A DNA stretch of 64,000 nucleotides, taken from assembly GCF_030028105.1 (NCBI RefSeq), contig NC_092382.1, positions 88,452,533-88,516,532 of the forward strand, written 5' to 3'. Under the pieces are notes generated by a model that had not been told where the DNA came from, did not search any database, and was given only the letters and a program-made list of their open reading frames with translations. Positions 5,969 to 61,927 of this stretch are shown piece by piece. Source of the stretch: Mobula birostris. Taxonomy: Eukaryota. A program made the translations under genes and the position numbers. How positions within the stretch are numbered: position 1 is the stretch's first letter; the number at the start of each line of letters is the position of its first letter.

Positions 5969-6366
5969 GTTAGACATGACACGGAATGTGGGAATCTCGA
6001 ACGCAGCACTCCAGTTTTGCTGTCTCTGTGCAGATATTTAAGTGGAGCAAGGGATTCACTCGATCATCCTTCCTGCTCAGACCGTGGGGAGGGATTCACT
6101 CGATCATCTGACCGACTGGCACACCTGTCATTTTACACAGGAGAGATCCCATTCATCTGCTCAGACAGTGGGTTGGATTGACTCGATCATTTGAACTGAA
6201 GGTACATCAGCAGGTTCACTCTGGGACAAGGCCATTCATCTGTTCTGTGTGTGAGAAGGGATTCAGTCAGTCTTCCCACCTGTGGACACACCAGTCAGTT
6301 CACACCGGGCAGAGGCTGTTCATCTGCTGAATTTGTGGGGAAGGATTCACTCCGTCATCTGACCTA
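5969..6366 (+). other. 5' part of finger exon A: splice acceptor plus degenerate fingers ending in an in-frame TGA (6328)
   Basis: ttttacag|G acceptor is conserved, with exon starts at 20418, 30283(-), 42127(-) and 60590. Frameshifted finger repeats follow. Confidence 0.7.
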
Positions 6367-7320
6367 ATGGCTCACAAGCGAGTCCACACCGGGGAGGGGC
6401 CATTCACCTGCTCGGACTGTGGGAAAGGATTCAATAAATCATCTAAGTTGAAGGTACATCAGCGAGTTCACACTGGAGAGAGGCCATTCACCTGCTCAGA
6501 CTGTGGGAAGGGATTCACTCAGTCATCTCAGCTACTGATACATCAGTCAGTTCACACTGCAGAGAGGGATTTCACCTGCTCAGATTGTGGGAAGAGATTC
6601 CCTCACTCTTCCACCCTACAGAGACACCAGCGAGTTCACACTGGGGAGAGGCCGTTCACCTGCTCAGTCTGTGGGAAGAGATTCTCTCGGTCATCCCACC
6701 TACAGAGTCATCAGCGAGTTCACACTGGGGAGAAGCCGTTCACCTGCTCAGACTGTGGGAAGGGATTCACTCGATCATCCAACCTACAGATACACCAGCG
6801 AGTTCACACTGGGGAGAGACCATTCACCTGCTCAGACTGTGGGAAGGGATTCTATCAGTCATCTACCCTACAGAGACACCAGCGAGTTCACACTGGGGAG
6901 AAGCCGTTCACCTGCTCAGACTGTGGAAAGGGATTCACTGAATCATCCACCCTATTGGCACACCAGTCACTTCACACTGGGGAGTGGCGGTTCTCCTGCT
7001 CAGAATGTGGGAAAGGATTCAATCAGTCTTCCAAACTACTGGCACACCAGTCAGTTCACACCGGGGAGTGGCCATTCACCTGCTGTGAATGTGGGAAGGG
7101 ATTCACTCGGTCATCCAAATTACTGGCACACCAGCGAGTTCACACTGGGGAGAGGCCGTTCACCTGCTGTGAATGTGAGAAGGAATTCGCACGGCCATCT
7201 GATCTACAGATACACCAGCGAGTTCACACCGGGGAGAGGCCGTTCACCTGCTGTGAATGTGGGAAGAGATTCACTCGATCATCTCATCTACTGAGACACC
7301 AGCGAGTTCACCCTGGGTAG
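6367..7320 (+). CDS. C2H2 zinc-finger protein A, 11 tandem fingers, no effector domain seen
   Basis: CxxC-x12-HxxxH repeats with TGERPF linkers; open for 317 aa. Confidence 0.85.
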
Positions 7321-7696
7321 AGGCCAATCACCGGCTCAGACTTTGGGAGGAGATTCTCTCAGCCATCTTCACCAAATGTGCATCATTCAGTTCACACTGG
7401 GGAGAGGTGGTTCACCTGCTGTGAATGTGGGAAGGGATTCACTCAGTCATCTAACCTTGTGACACATTACTGGGTTCACAATGGGGAGAAAGTTTCAAAA
7501 AGCTGCTTGCTGGATATTTGTCCATCACCGTTGCTGAATGCAATTTCGAGAGTGACTGTCCATGCTGAACTCTACAATTATTGCTGCTGCTCACCACACC
7601 CAGTTCTGCACCCTGGTCACTGGGCATGGGAGGAGTTTCTTCTGCTGCACATTCACCTTTAATGGGACTGGAGTTTAATAATCCGGATCTGAGACA

Positions 7697-7702
7697 AATA
7701 AA
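7697..7702 (+). terminator. Putative poly(A) signal of ZNF A (paralogues 39893-39898 -, 62757-62762 +)
   Basis: aataaa in the conserved aataaatcagttctatttt context downstream of arrays A, D and E. Confidence 0.55.
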
Positions 7703-8369
7703 TCAGTTCTATTTTGAACTCTGTCTCCGGTACTTAGTAAATTTATAACATACCTGGTGTACAGTAGAGAGTCAACTCAGGCCGGCTGGACCCTGCCAGT
7801 GATTCTGTTCCACGACAGTCCTTTTAAATCCTGCCCTGTTGTTCATCTCTCTCTCCCTGTGGTGATGAGTTCCAAACAGTCACCACTCTGTGGGTGAAGA
7901 GGTTTCCCTTGAATTTTCTGCAGACTGAAGAAGTGGAGCTGACTGCAGTTCTGTCTGAGATGTTCTTCCCGCTGAAATCTCTGGACTGAGGAAGAATAAC
8001 ACTGGTAGTTAACCTCCTTAATTACGACTCATTTCCACATTATGGGTCATTTTTCCTGCTTCTAAAGGGTTGTTAGAAAACACCACTGTCCTATAAAGAC
8101 TGAAAGTAGAATGGGAAACCATCAGTTGGACATTCAACGGAGCAGGATCAGAAACCAGAGGCAGGTCTGCACAGGGCAGAGTCTGGGGGTCTGGACAATG
8201 GTCGGGGTAAGAACGTATGATGAGGAGAAGGGAATCAGCAGCGGAGCATGGCAACGAATGACAGAGTAGCAACATTTGGAAGCTGATTGACAGAGAAAAT
8301 CTTTTGTTTGTCTGACGGATGACACAAATAATACCTGTGGTGAGGTGCTCCACTGGTCAAGGAACATGT

Positions 8370-9550: not shown

Positions 9551-9574
9551 CAGATACTTGTATGTTTCTTGAAA

Positions 9575-11178: not shown

Positions 11179-11269
11179 TGCAAGATCATCCAGCAAGTTG
11201 CTCCATCTACTTGCCTTTTCCCCATAACCCTTGATTCCCTTACTCTGTAATAACCTATCTAACTCGATC

Positions 11270-11640: not shown

Positions 11641-11644
11641 TTTT

Positions 11645-12779: not shown

Positions 12780-12899
12780 GGCGCTGAAGCACCGCTCAAA
12801 TGCGCAGGCGTAAAGGTTGATTAGATTTGCAATATCACGCATGCGCGCAGTACACAATACCCTCAGGATCACGGCTGCAGGATCGGACGCAGGTAAGCG
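12780..12899 (+). promoter_or_regulatory. CpG-rich promoter and non-coding exon 1 of ZNF B
   Basis: NRF1-like tgcgcaggcg (12801) and cgcatgcgc (12838); donor cag|gtaagc at 12893; candidate next acceptor ctctctcag at 13009. Confidence 0.6.
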
Positions 12900-13189
12900 A
12901 GTATCTCGGGGTGATAATTTTCAACACCGACTGAGGGACAATTGTTGTGACCTGCGGGCGCCGTGGCCCACAATCCCGGGACAGTCCTGCTCTCTTCCCT
13001 CTCTCTCAGCCCCAGCATCCGTACACGGGCCCCGGGGAGCTTCCGGCTGATGAGGGATTGGGAACCGATGGATCTCTCAGACAGAGCTGAGCTCCAGCTG
13101 TCTAAATGCAAGGATTGGAAACTCGGAGAAAGGGAACAAAATCTTTTACATCAGCAGTTGAGAAAATCACCTTTGTTCTAATTCCAATG

Positions 13190-13320: not shown

Positions 13321-13489
13321 TCTACCTCCTCTTGTTCTGGACCTTTCTACCCGCGAGGACATGTTTTGACCCATTCTCTCTGGGTACATAATGATATCAA
13401 ACACCTTTGCCCTGGGCAACAAGAAGCTTTCACATCACAAATCTGCCAGACTCCAATGAGACAGACGACTGCCCTTCCCTTCTTATTCA

Positions 13490-19800: not shown

Positions 19801-19835
19801 TGTGAGAAGAATCTTAAATAATACTGATATTCACT

Positions 19836-19941: not shown

Positions 19942-20818
19942 CTGATATTCACTGTAATTCCATTTAACAGCCGTGCAGACCAACCATACATCTCAGTAGG
20001 AGATATTTACATGACGTTAAAACTGTGGCACTTTAAATTAACAGTACATAAAAGAAAATCCCAGCTGCATGTCAACAAAGGCTATTTGTGTGAGAGTGTT
20101 TCAGTTACTGGGCCCAGGCACCCATGCAGCTCAGTGGGAAGAGGGAATAATACCAATGGAGAGAGTCAAACTGAGCCAGGTCACAGATTGGAGACAGCAG
20201 AAATGCCCCATTCTTATAGAGACAGAAAAAGCATCAGAGAGTTTGTTGGTCATCCCAGATACCAGCACTGTGCCCAGTTAGAAGATGATTTCTCTCTCCA
20301 ACTTTGGTTGAACTTCACTGTAACAGAGTGATGTCAGATCACAGCTTGGCAAATCAAGTGATCTCATCTGAAATGTTGTCATTCACCCATTGATGGATTT
20401 TGTAAATCTTTTTACAGGTTAAAAATGACAAGGAATTTGTCTCTGGGAATCTCAAACACAACACGCCAGTTTTGCTGTCTCTGTGCAGATATTTAAGAAG
20501 TGGAGCAAGGGATTCACTCGATCATCCTTCCTGCTCAGACCGTGGGGAGGGATTCACTCGATCATCTGACCGACTGGCACACCTGTCATTTTACACAGGA
20601 GAGATCCCATTCGTCTGCTCAGACAGTGGGTTGGATTGACTCGATCATTTGAACTGAAGGTACATCAGCAAGTTCACACTGGGCAAGGCTGTTCATCTGT
20701 GTGTGAGAAGTGATTCAGTCGGTCTTCCCACCTGTGGACACACCAGTCGGTTCACACTGGGCAGAGGCTGGTCATCTGCTGAATTTGTGGGGAAGGATTC
20801 ACTCGGTCATCTGACATA

Positions 20819-21526
20819 ATGGCTCACCAGCGAGTTCACACTGGGGAGAGGCCGTTCACCTGCTCATTGTGTGGGAAGCGATTCACTCGGTCAGCTAAAC
20901 TGAAGGTACATCAGCGAGTTCACACCGGGGAGCGGCCGTTCACGTGCTTATTGTGTGGGAAGGGATTCACTCAGTCATCCACCCTAATGCTGCACCAGCG
21001 AATTCACACTGGAGAGAGGCCATTCACCTGCTTAGACTGCGGGAAGGGATTCACTCAGTCATCCACCCTACTGGCACACCAGTCAGTTCACACTGGGGAG
21101 AGGCCATTCACCTGCTCAGTGTGTGGGAAGGGATTTACTCAGTCATCCACCCTAATGGTGCACCAGCGAGTTCACACTGGGGAGAGGCCATTCACCTGCT
21201 CAAACTGTGCGGAGACATTCACTCGGTCATCCAACCTACAGAGACACCAGCGAGTTCACACTGGGGAGAAGCCATTCACGTGCCTAGACTGTGGGAAGGG
21301 ATTCACATCGTCATCTAAACTGAAGGTACATCAGCGAGTTCAGACTGGAGAGAGGCCGTTCACCTGCTCAGATTGTGGGAAGGGATTCACTCAATCATCC
21401 CACCTACAGAGTCACCAGCGAGTTCACACTGGGGAGAAGCCGTTCACCTGCTCAGACTGTGGAAAGGGATTCACTCGGTCATCCTCTCTCTTGGCACACC
21501 AGTCAGTTCACACTGGGGAGAAGTAA
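20819..21526 (+). CDS. C2H2 zinc-finger protein B, 8 fingers (6th lacks its last His); normal 3' UTR lost
   Basis: 235-aa finger ORF; degenerate fingers after the stop are cut by an ERV LTR at 21660. Confidence 0.75.
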
Positions 21527-28889: not shown

Positions 28890-31800
28890 ATGATATGATA
28901 ATCAATACATTATTACAGATAGGACAATCTATAATAACCATCCAGATATAATATTAGAGAATAAACAAGCAGGAACAACTTCCTCAATACATAAAACCAT
29001 TTCCAACACACACATGTTCCTTTGACCAGTGGAACACCTCACCAGAGGTATTGGTTGTGTCATCAGTCAGACAACTGCAAGATTTTCTCTGTCAATCAGC
29101 TTCCAAATGTTGCTACTCTGTCATTCGTTGCCAAGACCCACTGCTGATTCCCTTCTCATCATCATATGTTCTCCCCAGTGTGAACTGACTGGTGTGTCAG
29201 GAGATAAGATGACTGAGTGAATCCCTACCCACGGTCTGAGCAGGTGAATGGCCTCTCCCCATTATGAACTGACTGGTGTGCCAATAGGGTGGATGGCTGA
29301 GTGAATCTCTTTCCATAGTCTGAGCAGGTGAACAGCTTCTCCCCAGTGTGAACTCGTTGGTGACTCTGTAGGTGGGATGACCGAGTGAATCCCTTCCCAC
29401 AGACTGAGCAGGTGAATGGCCACACCGCAGTGTGAACTGACTGGTGTGTAAGTAGTTCAGATGACCAAGTGAATTCCTTCCCACAGTCTGAGCAGGTGAA
29501 CGGCCTCTCCCCAGTGTGAACTGAATGGTGTGCCAATAGGGAGGATGACTGAGTGAATCCCTTCCCGCAGTCTGAGCAGGTGAACAGCTTCTCCCCAGTG
29601 TGAACTCGTTGGTGAATCTGTAGGTGGGATGACTGAGTGAATGTCTTCCCACAGTCTGAGCAGGTGAATGGCCTCTCCCCGGTGTGAACTGACTGGTGTC
29701 TCTGTAGGTAGGATGACTGAGTGAATCCCTTCCCACAACCTGAGCAGGAGAAATCCCTCTCTGCAGTGTGAACTCGCTGATGTACCTTCAGTTTAGATGA
29801 ACAAGTGAATCCCTTCCCACAGTCCGAGCAGGTGAACGGCCGCTCCCCGGTGTGAACTCGCTGGTGAGCCATTAGGTCAGATGACCAAGGGAATCCTTCC
29901 CCAGAAATTCAGCAGATGACCAGCCTCTGCCCAGTGTGAACTGTCAGGTGAGTCCACAGGTGGGAAGACCGACTGAATCCCTTCTCACACACAGAGCAGA
30001 TGAACACACATATCAGCCCAGTGTGAACTTGCTGATGTAGCTTCAGTTCAGATGACCGAGTGAATCCATTCCCACTGCCTAATGAGCAGGTGAATGGCCT
30101 CTCCTGTGCAAAATGACAGGCATGCCAGTCAGTCAGATGATCGAGTGAATCCCTTCCCACAGTCTGAATGGGAAGGATGGTTGTTTGAATCCCTTGCTCC
30201 ACTTCTTAAATATCTTGACAGAGTCTGCAAAACTGGCGTGTTGTGTTTGAATTCCCATGGACAATTTCCTTGTCATTTTTAACCTGTAAAAAGATTTACA
30301 AAATACATCAATGGGTGAAGAACAACATTTCAGTTGAGATCACTTTAGTTGCCAAGGTGAAGAGAGAAATTATCTTCTAACTGGGCACAATGCTGGCATC
30401 TGGAATGACCAGCAAACTCTCTGATGCTCTTCCTGTCTTGAAAGAATGCGGCATTGTTGCCATCTCCAATCTGTGACCTGGCTGAGTCTGACTCTCTCCA
30501 TCGGTATTATTCCCTGTTTCCACTGAGCTGCATGGGTTCCTGGCCCCACAGCAACTGAAACACTCTCACACGAACAGCCTTTGTTAACTTGCAGCTGGGA
30601 TTTTCTTCTATGTACTGTTAATTTAAAGTCCCACAGTTTTAACGCCATGTAAATATCTCCTACTCAGATGTATGGTTGGTCTGCACAGCTGTTAAAAGGA
30701 ATTAGAGTGAATATTAGTATTATTCAAGATTCTTGTCACAGTCATAGAAAAGTATAACACAGAAACAGACCATTTGGCCCATCAAGTTTGTGTCGAGCTA
30801 CTTAAACTTCCTACTCCCATACCCCTACCATCCAGTTACCTATACAAACATCTAACATGTTGCAAGTGAGCTCGCAAGCACCACTAGTGCTGGCTGCCCA
30901 TTCCACACCTGGATGACCGTCTCCGTGAACAAGTTTCCCCTCTTGTTCCACATAACCTTTCACCTTTCACCCTTAACCTCTGTGTCCATCAAATCTCCCC
31001 TCACTCTTCTACGCTCCAAGGAATAAAGTCCTCACCTGTTCAATCTTTCCTTATAACCCAATTCCTCCAGACCTGGCAACATCCTTGTGAATTACCTCTG
31101 AACTCTTTCAACCGCTTTTACATCTTTCTGTTGGTGGGTGACCAAAACTGCACACAATACTCCAAATTAGGCCTCACCAGTGTCTTGTACAATGTCAACA
31201 AAACATCCATCTCCTGTACTCAGTACTTTGGTTCATGAAGGCCAAGGTGCCAAAATCTCTCGTTCTGTCCCTATCTACCTGTGATACCACTTTCAGTAAA
31301 ATATAGACCGGTATTCCCAGATCCCTTTCTTCAACAACACTCCTCAGTGCCTGACCAGTCACTGTGTAAGACCTACACTGGTAGGTCCTACCAAAGCACA
31401 ACACCTCGCACTTGTCTGCATTAAATTCCATTTTCCATTTCTTAAACCATTTTTCCAGCTGGTCCAGTTTGCACTGCAAGCCATGATAGTCTTCTCGCAG
31501 TCCACTAGATCCCCAGTCTTGGTGTCATGGTGATCCAGCTAACCATGTTATCATCCAGACTACTGATAAAGATGACAAACAACAACAGATCCAGCACTGA
31601 TCCTTGAGGCACACCACTAGTCACAGGCCTCTGGTCAGAGAGGCAACCATCTGCTACCACACTCTGGCTTCTCCCAAAGACAGTGTCTCATCCAATTTAC
31701 TATCTCATCTTGAATGCTGAGTGACTGAACATTCTTAACCAACCTCCCATATGAGACTCTGTCAAGTGCCTTGCTAAAGTCCATGTAGACAACATCCACT

Positions 31801-33930: not shown

Positions 33931-35396
33931 TGTGTGATCCACCACTCTGGACATGACAAATTAACGATGGTGGCATCGCAAGGCATTGATTTCAAAACTC
34001 CACACCCCTGTGAATATCTGTTTCTGTCAGGGTAACATACAGATTGGTCACTTCTGCTAAACAACTGGCAATTGATGAAGTTCCTGTGTCGTCTTCCATT
34101 AATGTTGCTTCCTTACAGCAAAACTAACCCTCTCACTGTGTCAGAATCAGTGATTAAATCCGGCTCCAAACACTGTGTTTTCATCCCTGCACATTGTAAC
34201 TTGAACCATCTCACTGAGGGTCTGATGGAGACACAACCCCTGCCCTCTGCACGTGTGATCACATCTCCCCTGATTCTGACATTTCAAATACCCTCAGAAT
34301 GGTTTTCTGATTCAGTCTGAAGGTTATGGTACATTCAGCTCATCGTCAAACCTGACAAACCATGTCTTCCCACAGCTGGTTCCACCTGTTGGTGTGTTCT
34401 CTTTCCTCCACCTCCAGGGAAGCTGCATCTCCACACAAACTCCTCACTTGAGATGACTGTCTGTACCCGTGACACAGGAAATCACATCACTGTCTCTCTC
34501 CTGATACCATGTGTGACCTGCTCACCCCCGGGTAGCCTCCCTCAACAAGCTTCTTCCTCAGTCACCATCTGTGAGATTATATAAAACAAAAACAATTAAA
34601 ATGATCTATCAGACAACTCCTGTACCCCTCCACCCCGCTTCTCTGCTTAAAACTCTTCTCCTCAGCCCCTTCCTTTCTCCCTTTCCCCTTACAAACTCCA
34701 GATGTGCATACTGACCAGAACCCACTGTGTGGACATTTATATCTCACAGGAGACTGAACAACCCCGTGTCCCTCTTTGATACAGAGGTCACTGACACCCC
34801 ACCGCCATCCCAATCTGCACCAACAGCCCATGACGGTGACAGCTCTTCCCAGACTCTGGGGCTTTGTAACAAACACAATGTTAACAGCAAGATTAGACAG
34901 TAATTCATATGAAGAGAGAATTGTTGCTCACTGAACAGATACCCGAGCGTCCGATACAACGGAGCAGATCCTCCCCTGTTTACAACTTTATCTGACCCGG
35001 GTCACGGAACGTCCGATCATCCCACTTCCTCACAACAGCAACCCCATCCTCCCCCCACCCGACTACGGTCTCACATCTTTCCAACCACTCACCCCACACC
35101 CACAGTCCACCCATAACCTCTACCCACACACAGACAGATCCCCTTCACCCCAAACCCCCTCCCAGCCTGGGAACCACAACGAACTGATCCCACAGCCCGG
35201 GCTCGGGCGCAAAGCTAAAACCGGGGCTGCGGGACGACCGGCAGAACTCGGTCCCGGCCCTTTCCCACTGCAGCAGGCCCCCGATTCACGCACTCCAGGA
35301 ATAACCCACTCACTCACCGCCGCCTGAACGGCAGACACACCAGCAAAGGCAACAGCTGCGGTTGGCACCGCGCCTGCGTTTACCAGGAGGTTCGCC

Positions 35397-35458
35397 GCAG
35401 CGCCACCCGTGGCCGGAGGACCATGCAGCGCCACCCGTGGCCGGAGGACCATGCAGCG
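35397..35458. repeat. 28-bp tandem duplication
   Basis: gcagcgccacccgtggccggaggaccat x2 plus a partial copy. Confidence 0.9.
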
Positions 35459-35499
35459 GCCGGAGGCGGGAGGGACAATGGAGAGATAAATCACAAACA

Positions 35500-35594
35500 A
35501 CACACATCAAAGTTGCTGGTGAACGCAGCAGGCCAGGCAGCATCTGTAGGAAGAGGTGCAGTCGACGTTTCAGGCCGAGACCCTTCATCAGGAC
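35500..35594 (-). mobile_element. 95-bp Penelope-derived insertion with 12-bp TSD
   Basis: TSD aaatcacaaaca at 35488-35499 and 35595-35606; nearly identical to 19837-19922. Confidence 0.85.
35559..35594 (-). ncRNA. Minimal type I hammerhead ribozyme motif
   Basis: Minus strand: gtc-CTGATGA-agggtctcggcct-GAAA-cGTC^gac; helix I gtc/gac; predicted cut between 35564 and 35563. Confidence 0.75.
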
Positions 35595-35949
35595 AAATCA
35601 CAAACATTTCCCTCCGAGGGAAGTTGGGGCGTTTGTGAAGCGTCTCCTGCGGCCGGAGTCTGATGTATCGCTGAGAGGTAGGAGGAGACCGCTCGGCCCG
35701 TCGGTTTGATGCCGGTTCCCCGGGGAGGGAGAGGATGAAGACGGTGAGAGAGGGGGCGGACAGGATGTTTGTCCCGGTGGGGACAGGAGGGGCTCATCTG
35801 TGGAAATGTCTGAGCCCACGGTGGTGGCGATTCACCACATTGGGGGGCAAACACCGGCAGACTGTTGCCCTGCAAGCGGGGCCAATGGTCCGGGCAAAGT
35901 GGGGATGGAAGTGGTGTTGGGGGGGGGGGTGAGGAGAGGACTTTTCGTA

Positions 35950-36262
35950 TGGTGTTTGTATCCATAACAGAGGGCTCAGACTCAAAACTGAGGAGTGACC
36001 TTTTAGAGTAGTTAAGGAGGATTTTATTTAGTCAGAGAGCAGTGAATCTGTGGAATTCTCTCACACGGCGGTGGAGGCCAAGTCTGTGGCTACATTTAAG
36101 GCAGAAACTAATAGTTTGCTGATCAGTCAGGGCATTGCAGGAGATGCCGAGGAGGCAGGTGCATGGGGTTGAGTGAGAACCGGGATCAGACATGATAGAA
36201 CGGCGGAGCAGACTCGATGGGGCTGAATGGCCTAATTCTGCTCCTGTGTCTTATGGTCTTAT
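35950..36262 (+). mobile_element. CR1 3' end
   Basis: agagagcagtgaatctgtggaattct motif and a tcttatggtcttat tail. Confidence 0.7.
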
Positions 36263-40542: not shown

Positions 40543-41718
40543 TCACTGAGATGACAAAGTGAATCCCTTCCCACAGTCTGAGCAGGTGAACAGCCTCTCT
40601 CCAGTGTGAACTCGCTGATGTACCTTCAGTTTAGATGAGCAAGTGAATCCCTTCCCACAGAATGAGCAGGTGAACGGCCTCTCCCCAGTGTGAAGTCGCT
40701 GGTGAGCCTTTAGGGTGGATGACTGAGTGAATCCCTTCCCGCAGTCTGAGCAGGTGAATGGCCTCTCTCCAGTGTGAACTCGCTGATGTTCCTTCAGTTT
40801 AGATGAGCAAGTGAATCCCTTCCCACAGTCTGAGCAGGTGAACGGCCGCTCTCCAGTGTGAACTCGCTGATGGTCCTTCAGATTAGATGACCAAGTGAAT
40901 CCTTTCCCACAGTCCGAGCAGGTGAATGGCCTCTCTCCAGTGTGAACTCGCTGATGTACCTTCAGTTTATATGAGCAAGTGAATCCCTTCCCACATTCTG
41001 AGCAGTTGAAATCCCTCTCTGCAGTGTGAACTCGCTGATGTACCTTCAGTTTATATGAGCAAGGGAACCCCTTCCCACATTCTGAGCAGGTGAAATCCCT
41101 CTTTTCAGTGTGAACTGACAGATGTGCTTGTAGGTGGGATGACTGAGTGAATCCCTTCCCACAGTTTGAGCAGGTGAACGGCCTCTCTCCAGTGTGAACT
41201 CGCTGATGTTCCTTCAGTTTAGATGAGCAAGTGAATCCTTTCCCACAGTCTAAGCAGGTGAACGACCTCTCTCCAGTGTGAACTCGCTGATGTACCTTCA
41301 GTTGAGATGAGAAGGTGAATCCCTTCCCACAGTCTGAGCAGGTGAATGGCCACTCCCCGGTGTGATCTGACTGGTGTCCCAGTAGGGAGGATGATTCAGT
41401 GAAACCCTTCCCACAGATTAAGCAGGTGAACGGCCGCTCCCCTGTGTGAATTGACTGGTGTCTCTTTAAGGAGGATGATTCAGTGAATCCCTTCCCACAG
41501 ACTGAGCAGGTGAATGGCCTCTCTCCAGTGTGAACTCGCTGGTGAGCCATTAGGGTGGATGACTGAGTGAATCTCTTCCCACAGTCTGAGCAGGTGAATG
41601 GCCTCTCTCCAGTGTGAATTCGCTGATGTACCTTCAGTTGGGATGACCAAGTGAATCCCTTCCCACAGTCTGAGCAGGTGAACGGCCTCTCTCCAGTGTG
41701 AACTCGCTGGTGAGCCAT
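40543..41718 (-). CDS. C2H2 zinc-finger protein D, 13 complete fingers
   Basis: 391-aa finger ORF; degenerate fingers continue to about 40100. Confidence 0.88.
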
Positions 41719-44700
41719 TAGGTCAGATGACTGAGTGAATCCTTCCCCACAAATTCAGCAGATGACTAGCCTCTGCCCAGTGTGAACCGACTGGTGTGTC
41801 CACAGGTGGGAGGACCGACTGAATCCCTTCTCACACACAGAAGAGGTGAACGGCCTTGTCCCAGTGTGAACTTGCTGATGTAGCTTCAGTTGAGATGACT
41901 GAGTGAATCCATTCCCAATGTCTGTACAGATGAATAGCCTCTCCCCTGTGTAAAATTATGGGTGTGTCAGTAGGTCAGATGATCGGGTGAATCCCTCCCC
42001 ACAGTCTGAGCAGGTAGGATGATTGAGTGAATCCCTTGCTCCACTTCTTAATTATTTGGACAGAGACAGCAAAACTAGCGTGTTGTGTTCGAGATTCCCG
42101 TAGACAAAATTCCTTGTCATTTTTAACCTGTAAAAAAATTTATAAAATCCATCAATGAGTGAAGGACAGTATTTCAGACGAGATCACTTGAGTTGACCAG
42201 GTATGATCTGACAACACACTGTTACAGAGAGGTTCAACCCAAGCTGGGGAGAGAAATCACCTTCTAACTGCGCACAGTGCTGGTATCTGGAATGACCATC
42301 AAATTCTCTGATGCTTTTCCTGTCTCTAAAAGAAGGGGGCATTTCTACTGTCTCCAATCTATGACCTGGCTGAGTTTGACTCTCTCCATTGGTATTATTC
42401 CTTGTTCCCACTGAACTGCATGGGTTCCTGGCCCCACAGTAACTGAACAACTCTCACACAAATAGCTGGCAGTGCATTCCACGCACCACCACTCTCTGTG
42501 TAAAAAAAACTTTCTCTTGACATCCCCCTCAGTATCTATTTCCAAGCACCTTAAAACTATGCCACTCATGCTAGCCATTTCCACCCTGGGAAAAAACCTC
42601 TGGCTGTCCACACGATAAATGCCCCTCATCATCTTATACATCTAAAAAAGGCTCTAAATATAAACAAGGAAATTATACATTGCTTTGAGGATTTGTTAGT
42701 ATACAAAATTTTGAGGGTATAGATAGGGTAAATGCAAGCAGCTTTTTCCACTGAGGTTGGGTGGGACGACAACCAGAGGTCATGGGTACGTGGGAGAGGT
42801 GAAAATTTGACAGGAACATGTGGAAAAGCTCTTTACTGAAATGGTCGTGAGAGTGTGGAATGAGATGCCAGCACAAGTGGTGAATATGAGCTCGGTGTCA
42901 CCATTTAAAAGAAGTTTGATAGGTACCTTGATGGTAGAGGTACGGAGGGCGATGGTCCCGGTGCAGGTAGTTGCATTAGACAGCTTAAATGTTTTTTCAG
43001 CATTGACTGGATGGGTCAAATAGCCTGTTTCTGTACTGAACATCTCCATGTTTCTATGACAGAGGAGCTGGCCAAACTTGTTTGGCAGGGATAAGGTAGG
43101 AGTGACAACGGAGCAGCAATGGCGGGAGTTTGTGGGACCAATTTGGGTGCTGAGTGATAGATACATCCCAAAGAAGTGGAAGCAGTGGAAAGGCAGGACA
43201 CAACTGTGGCTGAAATGAGAAGCCAAAGCCAATATAAAAGCCAAAGAGAGGGTAAATAATGACCAAAAACTATTGGGAAGCTTTTAGAAACCAACAGAAG
43301 ACAACTAAAAAAAAGTCAGATGAGCTCAGTGCATGGACTCATGGAATTGTAGTCATTAATGAGTCTTGGTAGCACCCATTAGAGGAACAAAATATCCGGG
43401 GCCTCAATATCTCCTGAAAACCCAGGTTCCCTGCACCAGTTACCTGCAACCTTTTACCTTTTATTTTGGCAGGTTCATACAAACTGGACACCCTCAAAAT
43501 TTCATTTCTGAAGGTCTCCCACTTACCAAGTACTCCTTTGGCAGAAAACAGCCTGTCCCAAACCACACTTGTCAGATCCTTTCTGATACCATCAAAATTG
43601 ACCTTTCTCCAACTTAGATTCTCAACCCGTTGTCTAGACCTCTCTTTTTCCATATTTACTTGGAACCTCATGGCATTATGATCATTAGACACAAAGTGTT
43701 CCCATACACTAATTTCTGTCACTAGCCCTGGATCATTTCCTGATAGCTTATCGCACACTTCTACGTCAGGAATTCTATGTACTGATTAAGAGCATATTTG
43801 ACAAACTCTACCCCATCTAGTCCTTTTACAGTATGGGGGTCCCAGTCAATATATGGAAAGTTGAAATCACTTCCTAAATCAACCTTTGTTTCTTGGCCTA
43901 GTCTACGATCCCTCTACAAATTTGTTCCTCTTAATCCCTCAGACTGTTGGGTGCAACCAAGTCCCAGTAATGGCTACAATATCATAATTCCCTGTCCTGA
44001 GCTCATCTGACTTTCCTATGATGCTTCCTGCATTGTGATATACACAGTTCAGGACAGTCGTCACACCATGCTCAACCATTTGATTGCTGTCTTTGTCTGA
44101 GGTCTGAACAACATCTGTCTGGTGTCAATAAAACAACCTCTCTGGGATAGCGTCCTCCACCAGTACATCAGACTGACTAATTCAATGCTGAAACAATTGA
44201 ATTTCTGTGTTATATTGACTGTCCTGTTGTATATACGATTTATTATAAATTACTATAAATTGCACATTGCACATTTAGATGGATATGTAACAAAGATTTT
44301 TGCTCCTCGTGTATATGAAGGATACAAGTAATAAAGTCAATTGAATTCAACTCACCCTCTCCACTATCTGTTCTGTCATTCTGGCTCCCATCCCCACTGA
44401 AACTTTAGTTTAACCTCTCCCCCCCCCCAACCCCCCACTAGCAATAGCCAGCCTTATCCCTAGGATATTAGTCCCCTTCTAGTTCTGTTGCCCTAACTAA
44501 TTCCCTGCAACACTTTCTAAAGTAGTCCACCTGTCGTTGTGGGGGATAGCACCGAGGGTACTCTGCAATGGCTATTTAACCTCATTCCCCTTAATGACTC
44601 TCACCCAGTTTCCTGTGTCCTGCACCTTGGGTGTAACTCACCTCTCTTCATGTCATACCTATTTCCCCCCCCCCCCCCAACTCCTGGATGATCCGGAACT

Positions 44701-45824
44701 CATCCATTTCCAGCTTCAGCTCTTTAAAGTGCGGGGTTACAAGCTGCAGCTGGATGCACATCTTGTAGCTGAGGGCATCAGGGATACTGGAGGTCTCCCC
44801 ACCTTCCCACCAATGTCCCCTTTAATTTGTTAAGACCAGTGTGCACCTAAATCTTGTACTGTACATTTTTCACCCAGTGACAACATGTGCACAGTGAATT
44901 TTAAATAGAGAGGTCTTCATTTTCACACCTAGCAAATCACTGTCGATAAGAACTTTGATCTCCTCTGGGTTGATCGAGTTCATCTGCACTCTCACACAAC
45001 CTATGTAGCAGGCTTGTAATGGGTAATGAAGGATTTTCTCACCAGAGCTTTTGCACACTGTCCCTATGTGGTTTGCTTGCTAAATTACACTTTGAAAAGT
45101 CAGATTTCCAAATATCACTCCACTTCCTCCCACTTGCAAATTTTCCAGCAACTTTTGCATCACCACAATACACAAAGGTAACACCAGTTTCTGTATTGTA
45201 CATAAATATTTCCCCTGAACCCTCCCCCAGGAGACTAAGGGTGGTGAACTCAGTGATGGCAATGCCAGTCAATATGAACTACTCTGCCTCATTGGAGTCT
45301 CACACATTTGTGATGTGAGAACTACTTGTACACCCAGAGTGAATGGGTCAAAACATGTTCTCACGACTAGAAAAGTCCAGAACAAGAGGAGGTAGAACAA
45401 GCAACACACACAAAATGCTTCAGGAGCTCAGCAGGCCAGGCAGCATCTATGGAAAAGAATACTAATGCTGAGTACCTCCAGCAATTTGTGTGTGTTGCTT
45501 GGATTTTCAACATCTGCAGACCTTCTCTTGTTTGTGATCGGAGGTAGAACAAAGGTGATTTTCTCAACAGCTGATGTAAAAGATTTTGTTCCCTTTCTCC
45601 GAGTTCCCAGTCCTTGCATTTAGACAGCTGGAGCTCAGCTCTGTCTGAGAGATCCATCGGTTCCCATTCCCTCATCAGCCGGAAGCTCCCCGGGGCCCGT
45701 GCAGGGATGGTGGGGCTGAGAGAGAGGGAAGAGATCAGGACTGTCCCGGGATTGCGGGTCACGGTGGCAAGGTTCACAGCAATTGCCCCCCAGTCGGTTT
45801 TGAATTTTCTCCCCGGAGATACAC

Positions 45825-45935
45825 TCTTACCTGGGCCGATCACCCCAACTCCTTTTGTTTACTGCGCGCATGCGCGATATTCGAGAACATCCGCAGCCCT
45901 GACGCCTGCGCATTAGATCGGCGCTTCAGCGAGCT
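45825..45935 (-). promoter_or_regulatory. Promoter/exon 1 of ZNF D
   Basis: NRF1-like tgcgcgcatgcgcg (45863) and cgcctgcgca (45903); donor cag|gtaaga at 45830; paralogue of 12780-12899. Confidence 0.6.
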
Positions 45936-51920: not shown

Positions 51921-52084
51921 GTAAAACTAGTTAGACCACATCTGGAGTGTTTCATACAGTTCTGGTCGCCCCCACTCTCGGAAGGATGTCGGGGCTTTGG
52001 AGAGGGTGCAGAAGAGGTTTACCAGGATATTGCCTGGATTAGAGGGCATGAGTTAAAACAAAAGTTTGGACAAATTTGCTCTTC

Positions 52085-52600
52085 CTCCGGTGGGAGAATC
52101 TACCGGTCACGTGATCCTGTTTGCCCCTCCCATTTAACTGCAGACGGGCAGCATCTGCGCGTCTATTTCCGAGGCCCCGCCCTCCAGATGACACATCATT
52201 CACTTTGCGCACGCTCAGTGTTTTCCTTTCCACTCAGTGCTGAAACCGATCGTCTGCGGACTCAGGAAAGGATCCTCGCCTCTTGGGTTGGCAGCCGGGG
52301 GTCGCGATCACTGTCTGCGGGCCGAAGATATCACTTTCCCACCGGTGAGTATTACGACCGATCCCGAGCGGGGAGATCCGATGTTGGCCGTGAGCCCCGA
52401 ACTGAAGACCAGTTCCTCATTTAACTTCCAGTTATCTGGGGTCGCCAAAAATGTGTAGACTTCACGTAATCTGCATTGAACGATCCAATCCAGGAGCCCG
52501 GGCTGTCCATTTCTGCAAAATTGAAAGGCCAACAGGTCACACGAGGCTGTGTGCGCAGATCTGCCCCGCCCTCTGCTTTGTGACGCAAGATCACGCGGTG
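52085..52600 (+). promoter_or_regulatory. CpG-rich candidate promoter/exon 1 upstream of ZNF E
   Basis: E-box gtcacgtgat at 52106-52115; donor ccg|gtgagt at 52345. Confidence 0.5.
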
Positions 52601-55278: not shown

Positions 55279-57888
55279 ATAGAAACATAGAAACATAGAA
55301 AATAGGTGCAGGAGTAGGCCATTCGGCCCTTTGAGCCTGCACCGCCATTTATTATGATCATGGCTGATCATCCAACTCAGAACCCCGCCCCAGCCTTCCC
55401 TCCATATCCCCTGATCCCCGTAGCCACAAGGGCCATATCTAACTCCCTCTTAAGTATAGCCAATGAACTGGCCTCAACTGTTTCCTGTGGCAGAGGATTC
55501 CACAGATTCACCACTCTCTGTGTGAAGAAGTTTTTCCTAATCTCGGTCCTAAAAGGCTTCCCCTCTATCCTCAAACTGTGGCCCCTCATTCTGGACTTCC
55601 CCAACATCGGGAACAATCTTCCTGCATCTAGCCTGTCCAATCCCTTTAGGATTTTATACGTTTCAATCAGATCCCCCCTCAATCTTCTAAATTCCAACGA
55701 GTACAAGCCCAGTTCATCCAGTCTTTCTTCATATGAAAGTCCTGCCATCCCAGGAATCAATCTGGTGAACCTTCTTTGTACTCCCTCTATGGCAAGGATG
55801 TCTTTCCTCAGATTAGGGGACCAAAACTGCACACAATACTCCAGGTGTGGTCTCACCAAGGCCTTGTACAACTACAGTAGTACCTCCCTGCTCCTGTACT
55901 CGATTCCTCTCGCTATAAATGCCAGCATACCATTCGCCTTTTTCACCGCCTGCTGTACCTGCATGCCCACTTTCAATGACTGGTGTATAATGACACCCAG
56001 GTCTCGTTGCACCTCCCCTTTTCCTAATCGGCCACCATTCAGATAATAATCTGTTTTCCTATTTTTGCCACCAAAGTGGATAACTTCACATTTATCCACA
56101 TTAAATTGCATCTGCCATGAATTTGCCCACTCACCCAACCTATCCAAGTCACTCTGCATCCTCTTAGCATTCTCCTCACAACCAACACCACCACCCAGCT
56201 TCGTGTCATCCGCAAACTTGGAGATGCTGCATTTAATTCTCTCATCCAAGTCATTAATATATATTGTAAACAACTGGGGTCCCAGCACTGAGCCTTGCGG
56301 TACCCCACTAGTCACCGCCTGCCATTCTGAAAAGGTCCCGTTTATTCCCACTCTTTGCTTCCTGTCTGCTAACCAATTCTCCACCCACACCAATACCTTA
56401 CCCCCAATACCGTGTGCTTTAAGTTTGCACACTAATCTCCTGTGTGGGACCTTGTCAAAAGCCTTTTGAAAATCCAAATATACCACATCCACTGGTTCTT
56501 CCCTATCCACTCTACTAGTTACATCCTCAAAAAATTCTATGAGGTTCGTCAGACATGATTTTCCTTTCACAAATCCATGCTGACTTTGTCCGATCATTTC
56601 ACCGCTTTCCAAATTTGCTGTTATTACATCCTTGATAACTGACTCCAGCAGTTTCCCCACCACCAACGTTAGGCTAACCGGTCTATAATTCCCCGGTTTC
56701 TCTCTCCCTCCTTTTTTAAAAAGTGGGGTCATATTAGCCACTCTCCAATCCTCAGGAACTAGTCCAGAATCTAACGAGTTTTGAAAAATTATCACTAATG
56801 CATCCACTATTTCTTGGGCTACTTCCTTAAGCACTCTAGGATGCAGACCATCTGGCCCTGGGGTTTTATCTGCCTTCACTTCCTTCAATTTACCTAACAC
56901 CACTTCCCTACTAACATGTATTTCGCTCAGTTCCTCCATCTCACTGGACCCTCTGTCCCCTACTATTTCTGGAATATTATTTATGTCTTCCTTAGTGAAG
57001 ACAGAACCAAAGTAATTATTCAATTGGTCTGCCATGTCCTTGCTCCCCATAATCAATTCACCTGTTTCTGTCTGCAGGGTACCTACATTTGTCTTTACCA
57101 GTTTTTTCCTTTTTACATATCTATAAAAGCTTTTACAGTCCGTTTTTATGTTCCCTGCCAGTTTTCTCTCATAATCTTCTTTCCCCTTCCTAATTAAGCC
57201 CTTTGTCCTCCTCTGCTGAACTCTGAATTTCTCCCAGTCCTCAGGTGAGCCACTTTCTCTGGCTAATTTGTATGCTTCTTCTTTGGAATTGATACTATCC
57301 CTAATTTTTCTTGTCAGCCACGGATGCACTACCTTCCTTGATTTATTCTTTTGCCAAACTGGGATGAACAATTGTTGTAGTTCATCCATGCAACCTTTAA
57401 ATGCTTGCCATTGCATATCCACCGTCAATCCCTTAAGTGTCATTTGCCAGTCTATCTTAGCTAATTCACGTCTCATACCTTCAAAGTTACCCCTCTTTAA
57501 GTTCAGAACCTTTGTTTCTGAATTAACTATGTCACTCTCCATCTTAATGAAGAATTCCACCATATTATGGTCACTCTTACCCAAGGGGCCTCTCACGACA
57601 AGATTGCTAATTAACCCTTCCTCATTGCTCAGAACCCAGTCCAGAATAGCCTGCTCTCTAGTTGGTTCCTCGACATGTTGGTTCAAGAAACCATCCCGCA
57701 TACATTCCAAGAAATCCTCTTCCTCAGCACCTTTACCAATTTGGTTCACCCAATCTACATGTAGATTGAAGTCACCCATTATAACTGCTGTTCCTTTATT
57801 GCACACATTTCTAATTTCCTGTTTAATACCATCTCCGACCTCACTACTACTGTTAGGTGGCCTGTACACAACTCCCACCAGCATCTTC
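55279..57888 (-). mobile_element. Young 5'-truncated CR1; ORF2 (partial APE plus RT) broken by one in-frame stop
   Basis: ORFs 55872-57884 and 55377-55871 share a frame across a single TAG; FADD; (ttctatgt)n tail; tgtttc on both flanks. Confidence 0.95.
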
Positions 57889-58482
57889 TGTTTCGAGGTA
57901 TATAACCCTATTAATGCAAGAAGGAAGCCTTTTCTGTTTTTCTGGGCTTCTGAAACATTTGTACACTTCAGTTAAATATCCCTCCAGAAGTTCCAGAGGA
58001 GAAGCTCAGTCTGTCTAATATTTCCACACAATTAAAGTAGGGAATTGTTTATTATTGTCATGTACCAAGGTTTAATGAAAATCTTGTCCTGCATTCCCTC
58101 CTCTCAGATCAACACATTACAACAGTAGAAAATGATAATTCATTAACAGAGTGTAACAAAGCATTATGGTCACAGAGAAAATCCACTGCAGGTAGACATA
58201 TGGTGCAAGGTCACATTGAGTTACATTATGAAGTCAAGGTTCCATCTTATAATACTGAGGAATATTCAGTTTGTTTATAACAGCAGAATGGAAACTGTCC
58301 CAAGCCTAGGAATCTTTAATTATGTTGTCTGATTTACTGAGGCGGCAGGAAGTATAAAGAGAGTCCATGGAGGGGAGGCTTGTTTCCATGATGTGTCCAC
58401 AGTGCTCTTCTATTTCTTGAAGTCAAAAGAAGAGAGTAACCGTACAAAGGTGTGAAGTATCTGGATGGGATACTTTTCATGG

Positions 58483-59062
58483 TGTAAAATTAAATTTGCC
58501 AGATGAATAACAACACTACAAACAGTTATTTACTTTATCCTTTTCACCAGTTTATTTGTTCGAACTCAGCCGGCTAGAAGATCGGAGCGAAGCATCAGAG
58601 AGACAGAATTCGTCTCCCTCCGGCGGCTCATGATGAATCTCAGTCTAACATGCAGAAATATTACAATTATAGAACTAGCGAAACAAAGAGCACTTTAGTT
58701 CAACTGGTATTCCCACCAAGGCTGTTGGAGCAAAACTTAATTTATTAGGTAAGAGAGTCCACTAAATCAGGGTTTTAATTACAAATGAATGTTCTGTCCA
58801 ATCCTTATCAGTTATTCTCTTTTGTTAGACAAAGGAATGAACTTAGTTCAATTCGTGTCTCATGAGAACTCAACTCTACATAACATTCCCAAGAGGCATC
58901 TGTGTGTCGTTAATCTAAACAAGCTGCAAGCAGATTCCTCAGTGAAGGACAGAACAGAAATTTGCACACTATCCAGAACAGAGCACACATAAGTTGGCAC
59001 TTAGTTTTAACCTGTTATTTACAAGAGTCCAAGAATCATTTCTTACATCCCCCAATACCCTT
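58483..59062 (-). mobile_element. 3' LTR (58483-59047) with adjacent polypurine tract
   Basis: TGTAA...TTACA termini; PPT-like aagggtattggggga abuts TG on the minus strand; aataaa at 58551-58556 (-). Confidence 0.65.
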
Positions 59063-60970
59063 AAAACTTCATCACCAGAGTGTTGTAGCAGATAGTTGCC
59101 TTTCTGACTGAAAACCTGTGACTAGTGGTGTGCCACAGTGCAGGATCTGTTGTTGTTTGTCATCTCTATCAGTAATCTGGATGATAGTGTCATTAATTGC
59201 ATCAGCAAATTTGTGGATGACACCTGGATTGGTGGTGCAGTGGACAGCAAGGAAGACTATCATGGCATGCAGTGCGATCTGGACCGCTGGAAAAAATGGT
59301 TTGAGAAATGGAAAATGGAATTTAATGCAGACAAGTGTGAGGTGTTGTGCTTTGGTTGGACCTGCCAGGGTAGATCTTACACAGTGACTGGTAGGGCACT
59401 GAGAAGTATTGTAGAAGAAAGGGACATGGGAATACAGGTCTATATTTCACTGAAAGTGGTGTCGCAGTTCAATAGGGATGGAAAGAAAGATTTTGGCACA
59501 TTGGCTTTCATAAACGAAAGTGCTAAGTAGAGGAGATGGATGTTATGTTGAATTTGTACAAGACATTGGTGAGGCATAATTTGGAGTATTCTGTGCAAGT
59601 TTGATCACCAACCTACAGGAAAGATGTAAGAGAGTTTGAAAGAGTTCAGAGAAAATCCACAAGGATTTTGCCAGGTCTGGAGGTCTTGGTTCATAAGGAG
59701 AGACTGAACGGGTCTGGGCTTTATTCCTTGGAATGTAGAACATTGAGGGGAGATTTGATGGAGGTGTGCCAAAATTATGAGGGTTATAGATGGGGTAAAT
59801 GCAAGCTGGCTTTTTCCACTGAGATTGGTTGTGACTACAACCAGGGCCATGGGTTAAGGGTGAAAGGTGAAACATTAAGGGGAAAATGAGGGGAAACTTC
59901 TTCACACAGACGGTCATCCAGGTGTGGAATGAGCAGACAGCCCAACTGTTGCATGTGAGCTCAATTTCAACATTTAAGAGGTTTGTATAGGTGCCTGGAT
60001 ATTAGGGGTATGGGGTAAACAGTTTAAATAGTTCAACACAAACTAGATGGGCCAAGGGGCCTGTTTCTGTGTTGTACTTTTCTATGACTCTGTGACAAGG
60101 ACATGAAATAATACTAATATTAATGTAATTCCTTTTAACAGCTGTGCAGACCAACCATTCATCGGGGCAGGAAATGTTTACATGGCTTTAAAACTGTGGC
60201 ACTTCACATTGACAGTAGATAATAGAAAATTCCAGCTGCATGTCAACAAAGGCTATTTGTGTGAGAGTGTTTCAGTTACTGTGGGGCCAGGCACCCATGC
60301 AGCTCAGTGAGAACAGGGAATATTACCAATGGAGAGTGTTAAACTGAGCCAAGTCACAGATTGGAGATGCAGAAATGCCCGATTCTTATAGAGACAGGAA
60401 GAGCTTCAGAGAGTTTGATGGTCATTCCAGATACCAGCACAGTGCCCGGTTAGAAGATGATTTCTCTCTCCAACTTGTGTTGAACTTCACTGTAACAGTG
60501 TGATGCCAGATCACACCTTGACAACTCGAGTGATCTCATCTTAAATGTTGTCCTTCACTCATTGATAGATTTTATAAATCGTTTTTCAGGTTAAAAACGA
60601 CAAGGAATATATCTACGGGAATCTCAAACACAACACACCAGTGTTGCTGTCTCTATCCAGATACTTAAGAAGTGGAGCAAGGGATTCACTCGATCATCCT
60701 TCCTGCTCAGACTGTGAGGAGGGATTCACTCGATCATCTGACCGACTGGCAGGCCTGTCAGTTTACACAGGGGAGAGGCCGTTCACCTTTTCAGACTGTG
60801 GGGATTCAAGGTCAATTCATGAAGTTACATCAGCAAGTTCACACTGGGACAAGCCATTCACCTGTTCTGTGGGTGAGAAGGGATTCAGCTGGTCATCCCA
60901 ACTGTGGACACACCAGTCAGTTCACATCTGCTGAATTTGTGGGGAAGAATTCACTCAGTCATCTGACCTA

Positions 60971-61927
60971 ATGGCCCACCAACGAGTTTGCACTGGAGAG
61001 TGGCCGTTCACCTGCTCGGACTGTGGGAAGGGATTCACTCAGTCATCTCATCTACTGAGACACCAGTCAGTTCACACTGAAGAGTGGCCATTCACCTGCT
61101 CAGACTGTGGGAAGGGATTCACTCAGTCATCTGAACTAAAGGTACATCAGAGAATTCACACTGGGGAGAGGCCATTCACGTGCTCAGACTGTGGGAAGAG
61201 ATTCACAACGTTAGCTAGCTTACAAGCACACCAGCGAGTTCACACTGGGGAGAGGCCGTTCACCTGCTCAGTCTGTGGTAAGGGATTCACTCAGTCATCT
61301 CAACTGAAGGTACATCAGCGAGTTCACACTGGGGAGCGGCCGTTCACCTGCTCAGTCTGTGGGAAGGGATTCACTCAGTCGTCTAAAGTACTGAGACACC
61401 AGTCAGTTCACACTGGGACGTGGCCATTTACCTGCTCAGAGTGTGGGAAGGGATTCACTGAATCATCCTCCCTACAGAGACACCAGTCAGTTCACACTGG
61501 GAAGTGGCGGTTCACCTGCTCAGACTGTGGGAAGGGATTCAATCGGTCATCTCACCTGCTAAGACACCAGTCAGCCCACACAGGGAAAGGGCCATTCACC
61601 TGCTCAGACTGTGGGAAGGGATTCACCCAGTCATCTCTATTGAAGATACATCAGCGAGTTCACACTGGGGAGAGGCCTTATACCTGCTCAGACTGTGGGA
61701 AGGGATTCATTTTGTCATCCCAACTGAAGGTACATCAGAGAGTTCACAATGGGGAGAGGCCATTCGCCTGCTCAGACTGTGGAAAGGGATTCACTTCGTC
61801 ATATCACCTACTGAGACACCAGTCAGTTCACACCGGAGAGTGGCCATTCACGTGCTCAGTTTGTGAGAAGGGATTCACTTCGTCATATCGCCTACAGAAA
61901 CATCAGTCAGCCCACACAGGGAAATGA
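60971..61927 (+). CDS. C2H2 zinc-finger protein E, 11 fingers
   Basis: 318-aa finger ORF starting [10 protein letters not shown]. Confidence 0.85.

What the first reader, a model, noticed from the sequence alone, without database searches (positions are those of the whole stretch)
5969..61927. Expanding family of apparently effector-less tandem zinc-finger genes with diversified DNA-contact residues
Seen: five paralogous ORFs made only of C2H2 fingers (11, 8, 7, 13, 11) with near-constant scaffolds but different -1/2/3/6 residues (A: KSKV, QSQI, HSTR, RSHS, RSNI...; D: WSQV, QSTA, ESSR, CSKE, CYKV...; E: QSHR, QSEV, TASA, SYHR...). The ORFs stay open for 650-1180 nt while co-duplicated TE relics and flanking fingers are full of stops and frameshifts. 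No KRAB, SCAN or BTB exon is recognisable. Known: tetrapod KRAB-ZFP clusters evolve this way and target TEs. Inference: a KRAB-independent, possibly TE-recognising ZNF repertoire in a cartilaginous fish, acting by steric blocking or through an unrecognised cofactor or upstream exon.
Basis: partly seen in the sequence, partly recalled or inferred. Interest (0 to 1): 0.75.

Follow-up and report, generated by a model that had tools for sequence, protein, structure and literature searches.

The report
Finger-only zinc-finger genes of rays
Five duplicated genes, likely from a ray, have reading frames made only of zinc fingers because a shared stop codon cuts off any front domain; their zinc-holding residues are conserved while their DNA-reading residues change faster than neutral, so they likely track fast-changing repeats such as transposons without the silencing domain land vertebrates use, although no target has been shown.

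Summary
Observation confirmed. Five C2H2 arrays (11, 8, 7, 13, 11 finger units) sit in 5 of 5 duplicated gene units; named relatives are rays (Hypanus, Mobula). All five share a splice acceptor, about 400 nt of decayed fingers, one in-frame TGA, and an ATG 13 codons later, so nothing spliced to that acceptor can fuse with the intact fingers. Contigs of three RNA-like runs of relatives end loose at the acceptor, on several different upstream exons. No KRAB, SCAN or BTB was found. In 25 finger pairs pN/pS is 0.06 at Cys/Phe/Leu/His and 2.4 at helix positions -1/3/6, also without CpG changes. Transposon targeting and steric blocking are untested; a cryptic acceptor inside the array is not excluded. 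Large chondrichthyan ZNF repertoires were already counted (Wells 2023), and this scan has noted such clusters in at least eight other windows, one in this genome. Verdict: real, under selection, a new variant of a known kind, targets unknown.

The parts
5969..6366 (+). Gene A: 5' part of finger exon (acceptor at 5969, decayed fingers, TGA 6328-6330), inferred 5' UTR
6367..7320 (+). Gene A ORF, 317 aa, 11 fingers; AATAAA near 7697; promoter inferred to lie just before the window start
   Evidence: window 2-663 matches B 13631-14278
12801..12892 (+). Gene B candidate promoter/exon 1 (CpG-rich, GC-rich motifs recalled as NRF1-like, donor CAG/GTAAG after 12892)
   Evidence: sequence only
13010..13158 (+). 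Gene B candidate exon 2 with an upstream ATG (13050); its 3' end matches a loose end at the acceptor in run X3; donor +1 reads T here; no coding signature
20418..20818 (+). Gene B 5' relic part (acceptor 20418, TGA 20780-20782)
20819..21526 (+). Gene B ORF, 235 aa, 8 units (unit 6 His>Gln)
29225..29872 (-). Gene C ORF, 215 aa, 7 units (unit 7 Cys>Tyr)
29873..30283 (-). Gene C 5' relic part (acceptor 30283, TGA 29911-29909)
35001..36000 (-). CpG island with donor after 35318; candidate promoter of C, unrelated to the B/D promoter; link to C not shown
40543..41718 (-). Gene D ORF, 391 aa, 13 fingers, followed by broken fingers to about 40100
41719..42127 (-). Gene D 5' relic part (acceptor 42127, TGA 41757-41755)
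45567..45715 (-). Gene D candidate exon 2 (ATG 45675), 142 of 149 nt identical to B
45831..45912 (-). Gene D candidate promoter/exon 1 (donor after 45831)
52001..52600 (+). CpG island with donor after 52344; candidate promoter of E, unrelated to the others; link to E not shown
60590..60970 (+). Gene E 5' relic part (acceptor 60590; frame open from acceptor to TGA 60932-60934)
60971..61927 (+). Gene E ORF, 318 aa, 11 fingers; AATAAA near 62757

Best explanation
These are five segmentally duplicated ray-type genes whose finger exon carries a shared in-frame stop, so their predicted proteins start at an internal methionine and consist only of 7-13 zinc fingers, which likely bind fast-changing repeated DNA (young transposons) and would act by sitting on it rather than through a fused silencing domain. 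Shown: duplication with co-copied introns in both orientations; the acceptor, stop and ATG layout; splicing of family members at that acceptor in RNA-like contigs of relatives; conservation of the zinc scaffold; excess amino-acid change at -1/3/6. Inferred: an ancestral gene once read through the 5' part, which became UTR after the nonsense change; ribosomes reach the ATG by leaky scanning or re-initiation past short upstream ORFs; arrays are reshuffled by unequal exchange and conversion; the targets are repeats; the effect is occlusion of promoter or factor sites, possibly helped by partners that bind the fingers themselves.
For: Layout in 5 of 5 genes. Relic lengths 398/401/411/409/381 nt, different modulo 3. 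The acceptor frame is open to the same stop in gene E, and a Mobula hypostoma model ends at that position (P0003), consistent with a once continuous frame and an old stop. Loose ends at 20413-20419: 14 contigs in X1, 3 in X3 and 13 in X9, none among the 6 rows shown for the large DNA-like run X19 (24 of 285 rows shown); summed contig depth rises 6.3, 4.2 and 28-fold across the acceptor against 0.62 in X19. Scaffold pN/pS 0.06 (3 changes in 329 sites) and -1/3/6 pN/pS 2.4 (p 1.5e-8) in 25 disjoint closest pairs; without CpG-type changes -1 2.6, +3 3.4, +6 1.7 (+6 not significant). Scaffold lesions 6 of 60 in relic fingers against 3 of 300 in coding fingers, p 0.001. Context: ZNF and retroelement counts correlate across metazoans, and contact-residue selection marks TE-targeting families (PMC10547256).
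Against: No target was predicted or measured. No run is on record as RNA, all are contigs, and none holds half of the query words (best 0.36), so expression is shown for the family in relatives, not for A-E. Pairs are not phylogenetically corrected, and near-identical patches occur even in intronic TE relics (117-118 of 120 nt), so conversion can mix old helix types and inflate the contact-site ratio. Non-scaffold positions are only weakly constrained (pN/pS 0.78-0.82). Diversity at contact sites (0.31-0.41) is only modestly above 120 reference arrays (median 0.26, 95th percentile 0.33). B and C each carry a damaged finger, and all five arrays trail broken fingers. An ATG 7 nt into the exon in 4 of 5 genes opens a short upstream ORF, and -3 is a pyrimidine in 4 of 5 main starts, so output may be low. 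Wells et al. themselves question a purely defensive role.
Confidence: 0.48

Rival explanations
1. They are functional finger-only proteins, but their targets are not transposons: satellites, their own gene cluster, host promoters, RNA or proteins.
For: All selection results fit equally well. Wells et al. note that fly ZAD-ZNFs do not target TEs and propose repeat stabilisation instead of silencing (PMC10547256).
Against: Rapid paralogue-specific turnover at -1/3/6 (40 codes in 50 fingers) suggests a moving DNA target, which host promoters are not (inference).
Confidence: 0.29
2. The family is mostly decaying: arrays stay clean through recent copying and conversion from a few functional donors, and the helix diversity is old.
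For: Broken 5' and 3' fingers in all five genes, conversion-like patches, upstream ATGs, weak constraint outside the scaffold.
Against: 0 lesions in 50 units against about 22 expected; scaffold ratio 0.06 among the closest pairs; adjacent relic fingers of the same genes do lose scaffold residues (6 of 60).
Confidence: 0.1
3. A hidden effector exon is spliced in frame to a cryptic acceptor inside the array, past the TGA, making these ordinary effector-plus-finger genes.
For: Each finger has an AG after a short pyrimidine run; the clean read test ended at 20505 and did not cover it, and one search showed only 15 of 1275 joints. A's first exon lies outside the window.
Against: No KRAB, SCAN or BTB hits. 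At least three different upstream exons join the mapped acceptor. The one candidate coding exon shows 3 non-synonymous and 1 synonymous change in 36 codons and has no credible homologue. A sawshark model also starts at a Met directly before its first finger (P0060).
Confidence: 0.08
4. The unit is itself a mobile or selfish element that carries zinc fingers.
For: Many divergent copies: 1110 contigs of run X19 lie on a 571-nt stretch; both orientations occur.
Against: The copies share introns, different decayed TE relics and 3' UTRs over several kb with unequal ends, and the promoters differ; no transposase or RT is common to all units. Terminal repeats were not searched specifically.
Confidence: 0.05

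Closest known systems
KRAB zinc-finger protein clusters of sarcopterygians (with TRIM28)
   Same: Clustered birth-and-death duplication, all fingers in one exon, conserved scaffold with variable helix residues, TE-rich setting (PMC10547256 introduction read; PMC11603059 passages).
   Different: No KRAB here; the front of the finger exon is closed by a shared stop. PMC11603059 (passage) lists only PRDM9 for whale shark, and PMC8455134 (passage) reports KRAB enrichment among families lost in cartilaginous fishes.
Cyprinid FiNZ-ZNF genes (Wells et al. 2023, PMC10547256; parts 1, 2, 3 and 5 of 9 read, supplement rows seen)
   Same: KRAB-free, lineage-specific, hundreds of paralogues, positive selection at base-contacting residues.
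   Different: FiNZ genes have a 28-aa acidic domain on a coding exon upstream; these predicted proteins have only 14 residues of finger/linker sequence before the first Cys. FiNZ has knock-down evidence; this family has none.
Chondrichthyan tandem ZNF ORFs counted by Wells et al. and RefSeq 'zinc finger protein 239/92-like' models of Mobula and Hypanus
   Same: Same gene class: 315-3586 ORFs per genome in the 7 shark, ray and chimaera rows seen; XP_062896313.1, XP_059818804.1 and XP_059816923.1 share the exon start.
   Different: Those three models translate the 5' relic part, not an intact array; in the papers read, the stop-and-restart layout and the selection pattern are not described.
PRDM9 zinc-finger array (Baker et al. 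2017, PMC5519329, passages)
   Same: 84-nt minisatellite-like array with diversity at contact sites.
   Different: No SET, KRAB or SSXRD; share of diversity at contact sites 0.31-0.41 against 0.46-1.0 in the four complete PRDM9 rows seen; fingers only about 80% identical in DNA.

Membership tests
KRAB-ZFP | Tandem C2H2 array with TGERP-type linkers in one exon | tested here: met
KRAB-ZFP | KRAB domain in frame with the fingers | tested here: not met
   shared TGA. A's first exon lies outside the window, but the TGA blocks fusion through its acceptor.
KRAB-ZFP | Diversifying change at DNA-contact residues | tested here: met
   -1/3/6 pN/pS 2.4; +2 not diversified
KRAB-ZFP | Binds TE DNA and recruits TRIM28/SETDB1 | not testable with these tools
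   no genome, TE library, motif predictor or binding data
FiNZ-ZNF | N-terminal 28-aa acidic domain on a separate coding exon | tested here: not met
   the predicted proteins begin inside a finger. No FiNZ profile was run; the test is the absence of any in-frame N-terminal domain.
FiNZ-ZNF | Expression at zygotic genome activation and TE de-repression on knock-down | not testable with these tools
   runs are unlabelled contigs
SCAN-ZNF or BTB-ZNF | SCAN or BTB domain upstream in frame | tested here: not met
   0 of 116 upstream ORFs of 60 aa or more; the home-made SCAN profile was partly mis-cut and is not relied on
PRDM9 | PR/SET domain upstream of the array | tested here: not met
   shared TGA
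Lineage-specific tandem ZNF expansion (Wells et al. class, 5 or more fingers per ORF) | ORF with at least five C2H2 fingers in a recently duplicated cluster | tested here: met
   5 of 5 ORFs; paralogue introns 6-14% divergent

The most novel reading that the evidence does not exclude
One nonsense change amputated the front of an ancestral ray zinc-finger gene; the bare finger module, restarted at an internal Met and re-wired to different promoters and first exons, then multiplied into a repeat-recognition repertoire that restrains transposons with no effector domain at all, a third vertebrate solution beside KRAB and FiNZ.
Probability: 0.3. Interest if true: 0.8.

Novelty: new variant of a known kind. 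Interest (0 to 1): 0.5.

Why it matters
KRAB and FiNZ models assume that a fused domain recruits the silencer. A large, selected, finger-only family in the outgroup to bony vertebrates would test whether DNA recognition alone can drive ZNF-transposon co-expansion, and what vertebrate repeat control looked like without KRAB. It also matters for annotation: three RefSeq models seen here translate the decayed 5' part instead of an intact array.

Tried and rejected
No whole genome is held, so genome-wide dN/dS and a TE library were out of reach. No RNA holder was listed as RNA on record. The 16-kb lay was swamped by repeats and showed no informative joint. By eye the exon-2 peptide recalled a KRAB-A helix (from memory). 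Rejected: Pfam 0 families at E<=10, not among the top KRAB-profile hits, no homologue among longer proteins, three low-complexity chance hits among 1.84 billion representatives, only E>1 ribosomal hits in PDB, no Atlas hit. Exon 2 looked more conserved than its flanks (7 of 149 against 317 of 2002, p 7e-5), but the segment was chosen after the fact and equally alike 120-nt patches lie in intronic TE relics, so conversion suffices. It has no RNA structure (z 0.2 and 0.6) and the window has no Rfam match. CpG decay as the cause of helix diversity: 10 of 28 differences at -1, but only 1 of 25 at +3 and 0 of 14 at +6. Read-through of the TGA: rejected as a general route, since indels break the upstream frame in most copies; retention of the stop is itself not significant at this divergence. 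A codon-model fit timed out, so selection rests on pairwise counts. The array search was saturated by tetrapod KRAB-ZNFs and named no ray among the 120 listed. None of the five proteins is in the collection exactly. Two of four loose-end motifs matched nothing in the window as distinct exons, a third (exon-1-like, mixed consensus) had no match within 3 mismatches, and one matched exon 2.
Full report
Observation. A six-frame scan of the whole window found five C2H2 arrays and one stray chance match. From ATG to stop the ORFs are A 6367-7320 (+), B 20819-21526 (+), C 29872-29225 (-), D 41718-40543 (-) and E 60971-61927 (+). They hold 11, 8, 7, 13 and 11 exact 84-nt units; two units are damaged (B6 His>Gln, C7 Cys>Tyr). 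Position +2 is Ser in 44 of 50 fingers, so the diversity lies at -1, +3 and +6 (40 distinct codes).

Gene anatomy. Self-comparison shows several-kb duplicated units in both orientations that share introns, TE relics and 3' UTRs; the 330 nt before the acceptors differ by 6-14%. All five share an acceptor (5969, 20418, 30283, 42127, 60590), then 381-411 nt of a short spacer and decayed fingers, then a TGA in the frame of the ORF, then the ATG 13 codons later. The relic part has 13 indel events and lengths that differ modulo 3. So no exon spliced to this acceptor can be fused to the intact fingers. In E the acceptor frame is open up to the TGA, and a Mobula hypostoma model ends at the same place (P0003). 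I infer that the front was once coding and that the stop is old. B and D share a CpG-rich candidate promoter with a first donor (12892, 45831) and a second candidate exon (13010-13158, 45715-45567). The CpG islands upstream of C and E are unrelated to it and to each other, and their link to these genes is not shown. A, D and E share a poly(A) signal context.

Taxon. The 42-residue exon start hit 2 of 7 candidates, from Hypanus sabinus (90%) and Mobula hypostoma (83%), so the window is likely from a ray. No genome is held.

Transcription. No holder is on record as RNA, and the best share of words was 0.36, so the runs are relatives or paralogues. On 19935-20505, contigs of three RNA-like runs end loose at 20413-20419 (14 in X1, 3 in X3, 13 in X9). 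None of the 6 rows shown for the large DNA-like run X19 does, though only 24 of 285 rows were shown. Summed depth steps up 6.3, 4.2 and 28-fold across the acceptor against 0.62 in X19; contig depth is a crude measure. The loose letters differ. One set matches the end of candidate exon 2 in B and D, one encodes the residues before the junction in the H. sabinus model P0002, and others match nothing in the window. Family members therefore splice several different upstream exons onto this acceptor. In B and D the base at the matching donor position is T, so use of exon 2 by these two genes is uncertain. An acceptor inside the array was not tested cleanly (one search was swamped).

Effector search. 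Pfam found no KRAB, SCAN, BTB or SET among 116 sense-strand upstream ORFs of 60 aa or more, only retroelement remains and weak chance hits. A KRAB profile from 41 proteins gave best E 1.2 over 3078 six-frame fragments. The exon-2 peptide shows 3 non-synonymous and 1 synonymous difference between B and D in 36 codons and has no credible relative. Its high DNA identity is matched by patches in intronic TE relics and is best read as gene conversion, a lead I took from an earlier AI note (e1-9877731).

Selection. In 25 disjoint closest pairs covering all 50 units, pS is 0.156 and pN/pS is 0.06 at Cys/Cys/Phe/Leu/His/His, 0.59 in linkers, 0.82 elsewhere, 0.51 at +2 and 2.4 at -1/3/6 (p 1.5e-8). Without CpG-type changes the ratios are 2.6 (-1), 3.4 (+3) and 1.7 (+6, p 0.10). 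The coding units have no stop or indel, against about 22 expected at the intron rate; scaffold lesions are 3 of 300 against 6 of 60 in two relic fingers of the same genes (the six were counted by eye). Limits: the counts are pairwise and uncorrected, the codon model timed out, conversion can shuffle old helix types, and the window was picked for long ORFs. The share of diversity at contact sites is 0.31-0.41, above the median of 120 reference arrays (0.26; 95th percentile 0.33) but below the four complete PRDM9 rows seen.

Mechanism. Shown: layout, duplication, family-level splicing, scaffold conservation, contact-site turnover. Inferred: translation from the internal ATG by leaky scanning or re-initiation (an ATG 7 nt into the exon opens a 21-47 codon ORF in 4 of 5 genes); DNA binding; repeats as targets; action by occupancy. 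I put the whole chain at about 0.48, working finger-only proteins with other targets at 0.29, decay at 0.10, a hidden effector at 0.08 and a mobile element at 0.05. Tandem C2H2 coding also stalls ribosomes and destabilises mRNA in zebrafish (PMC11620358, abstract only), which could further limit output.

Comparison. It evolves like KRAB-ZFP and FiNZ-ZNF clusters but is a member of neither, since the defining N-terminal domain is absent. Wells et al. (PMC10547256; parts 1, 2, 3 and 5 of 9, term searches, supplement rows) counted 315-3586 tandem ZNF ORFs in the seven chondrichthyan rows seen. Their main text has no occurrence of shark, cartilaginous or skate, and they state that many such families are uncharacterised. 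PMC11603059 and PMC8455134 (passages) support the scarcity of KRAB in cartilaginous fishes; PMC10380595 (two passages) added nothing. Six literature searches (listings only beyond the papers named) showed no paper on a finger-only elasmobranch family. The library lacks most subscription journals, and supplement files 3-5 of Wells et al. were not searched. This scan has noted similar clusters before: seven windows of other genomes and one in this genome 2.6 Mb away with a shared stop codon. These are unreviewed AI notes, not independent evidence.

Verdict. The feature is real and under selection, and the finger-only architecture now has a concrete cause in sequence and partial transcript support. 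The exciting claim, transposon control without an effector, remains a testable hypothesis. New variant of a known kind; interest 0.5.

Noticed in passing
window 24100-24960 and 28121-28290 (+): Broken rhodopsin-family GPCR gene (7tm_1, E 8e-6), split by an LTR element; its last helix resumes after the element. The name GPR139-like comes from an earlier AI note and was not tested.
   Followed up: partly
window 24961-28120: LTR retroelement relic with two LTRs about 680 nt long and 91% identical and integrase-like remains (recalled resemblance; Pfam gave no hit).
   Followed up: partly
window 55380-57971 (-): Young LINE with nearly open endonuclease and RT frames (699 + 164 aa; RVT_1 E 5e-32), lying between E's candidate promoter and its finger exon.
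   Followed up: partly
window 48694-49962 and 50656-51921: Direct repeat pair of about 1.27 kb, 92% identical, not identified.
   Followed up: no
window 13400-14280, 2-663, 44510-45300: Co-duplicated intronic relic with a Cys/His pattern recalling a DNA-transposon zinc finger (from memory; no Pfam hit).
   Followed up: no
window 23532-23970: GC-rich 28-nt tandem array, 13 copies, built of 7-nt subunits.
   Followed up: no
window 7571-7917 versus 11299-11644 and 47732-48079: A 350-nt piece of the ZNF 3' UTR recurs (about 72% identical) upstream of the B and D promoters, perhaps the tail of an older tandem neighbour.
   Followed up: no
window 20043-20417: One contig of run X9 skips this stretch; moved by one base the skip has GT..AG ends, suggesting a further small upstream exon.
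   Followed up: partly
P0060 (Pristiophorus japonicus) and P0062 (Heptranchias perlo): The sawshark model starts at a Met just before its first finger, and the Heptranchias model has the same motif context, at a start site different from the rays'. Finger-only starts may have arisen twice or be ancestral in elasmobranchs.
   Followed up: no
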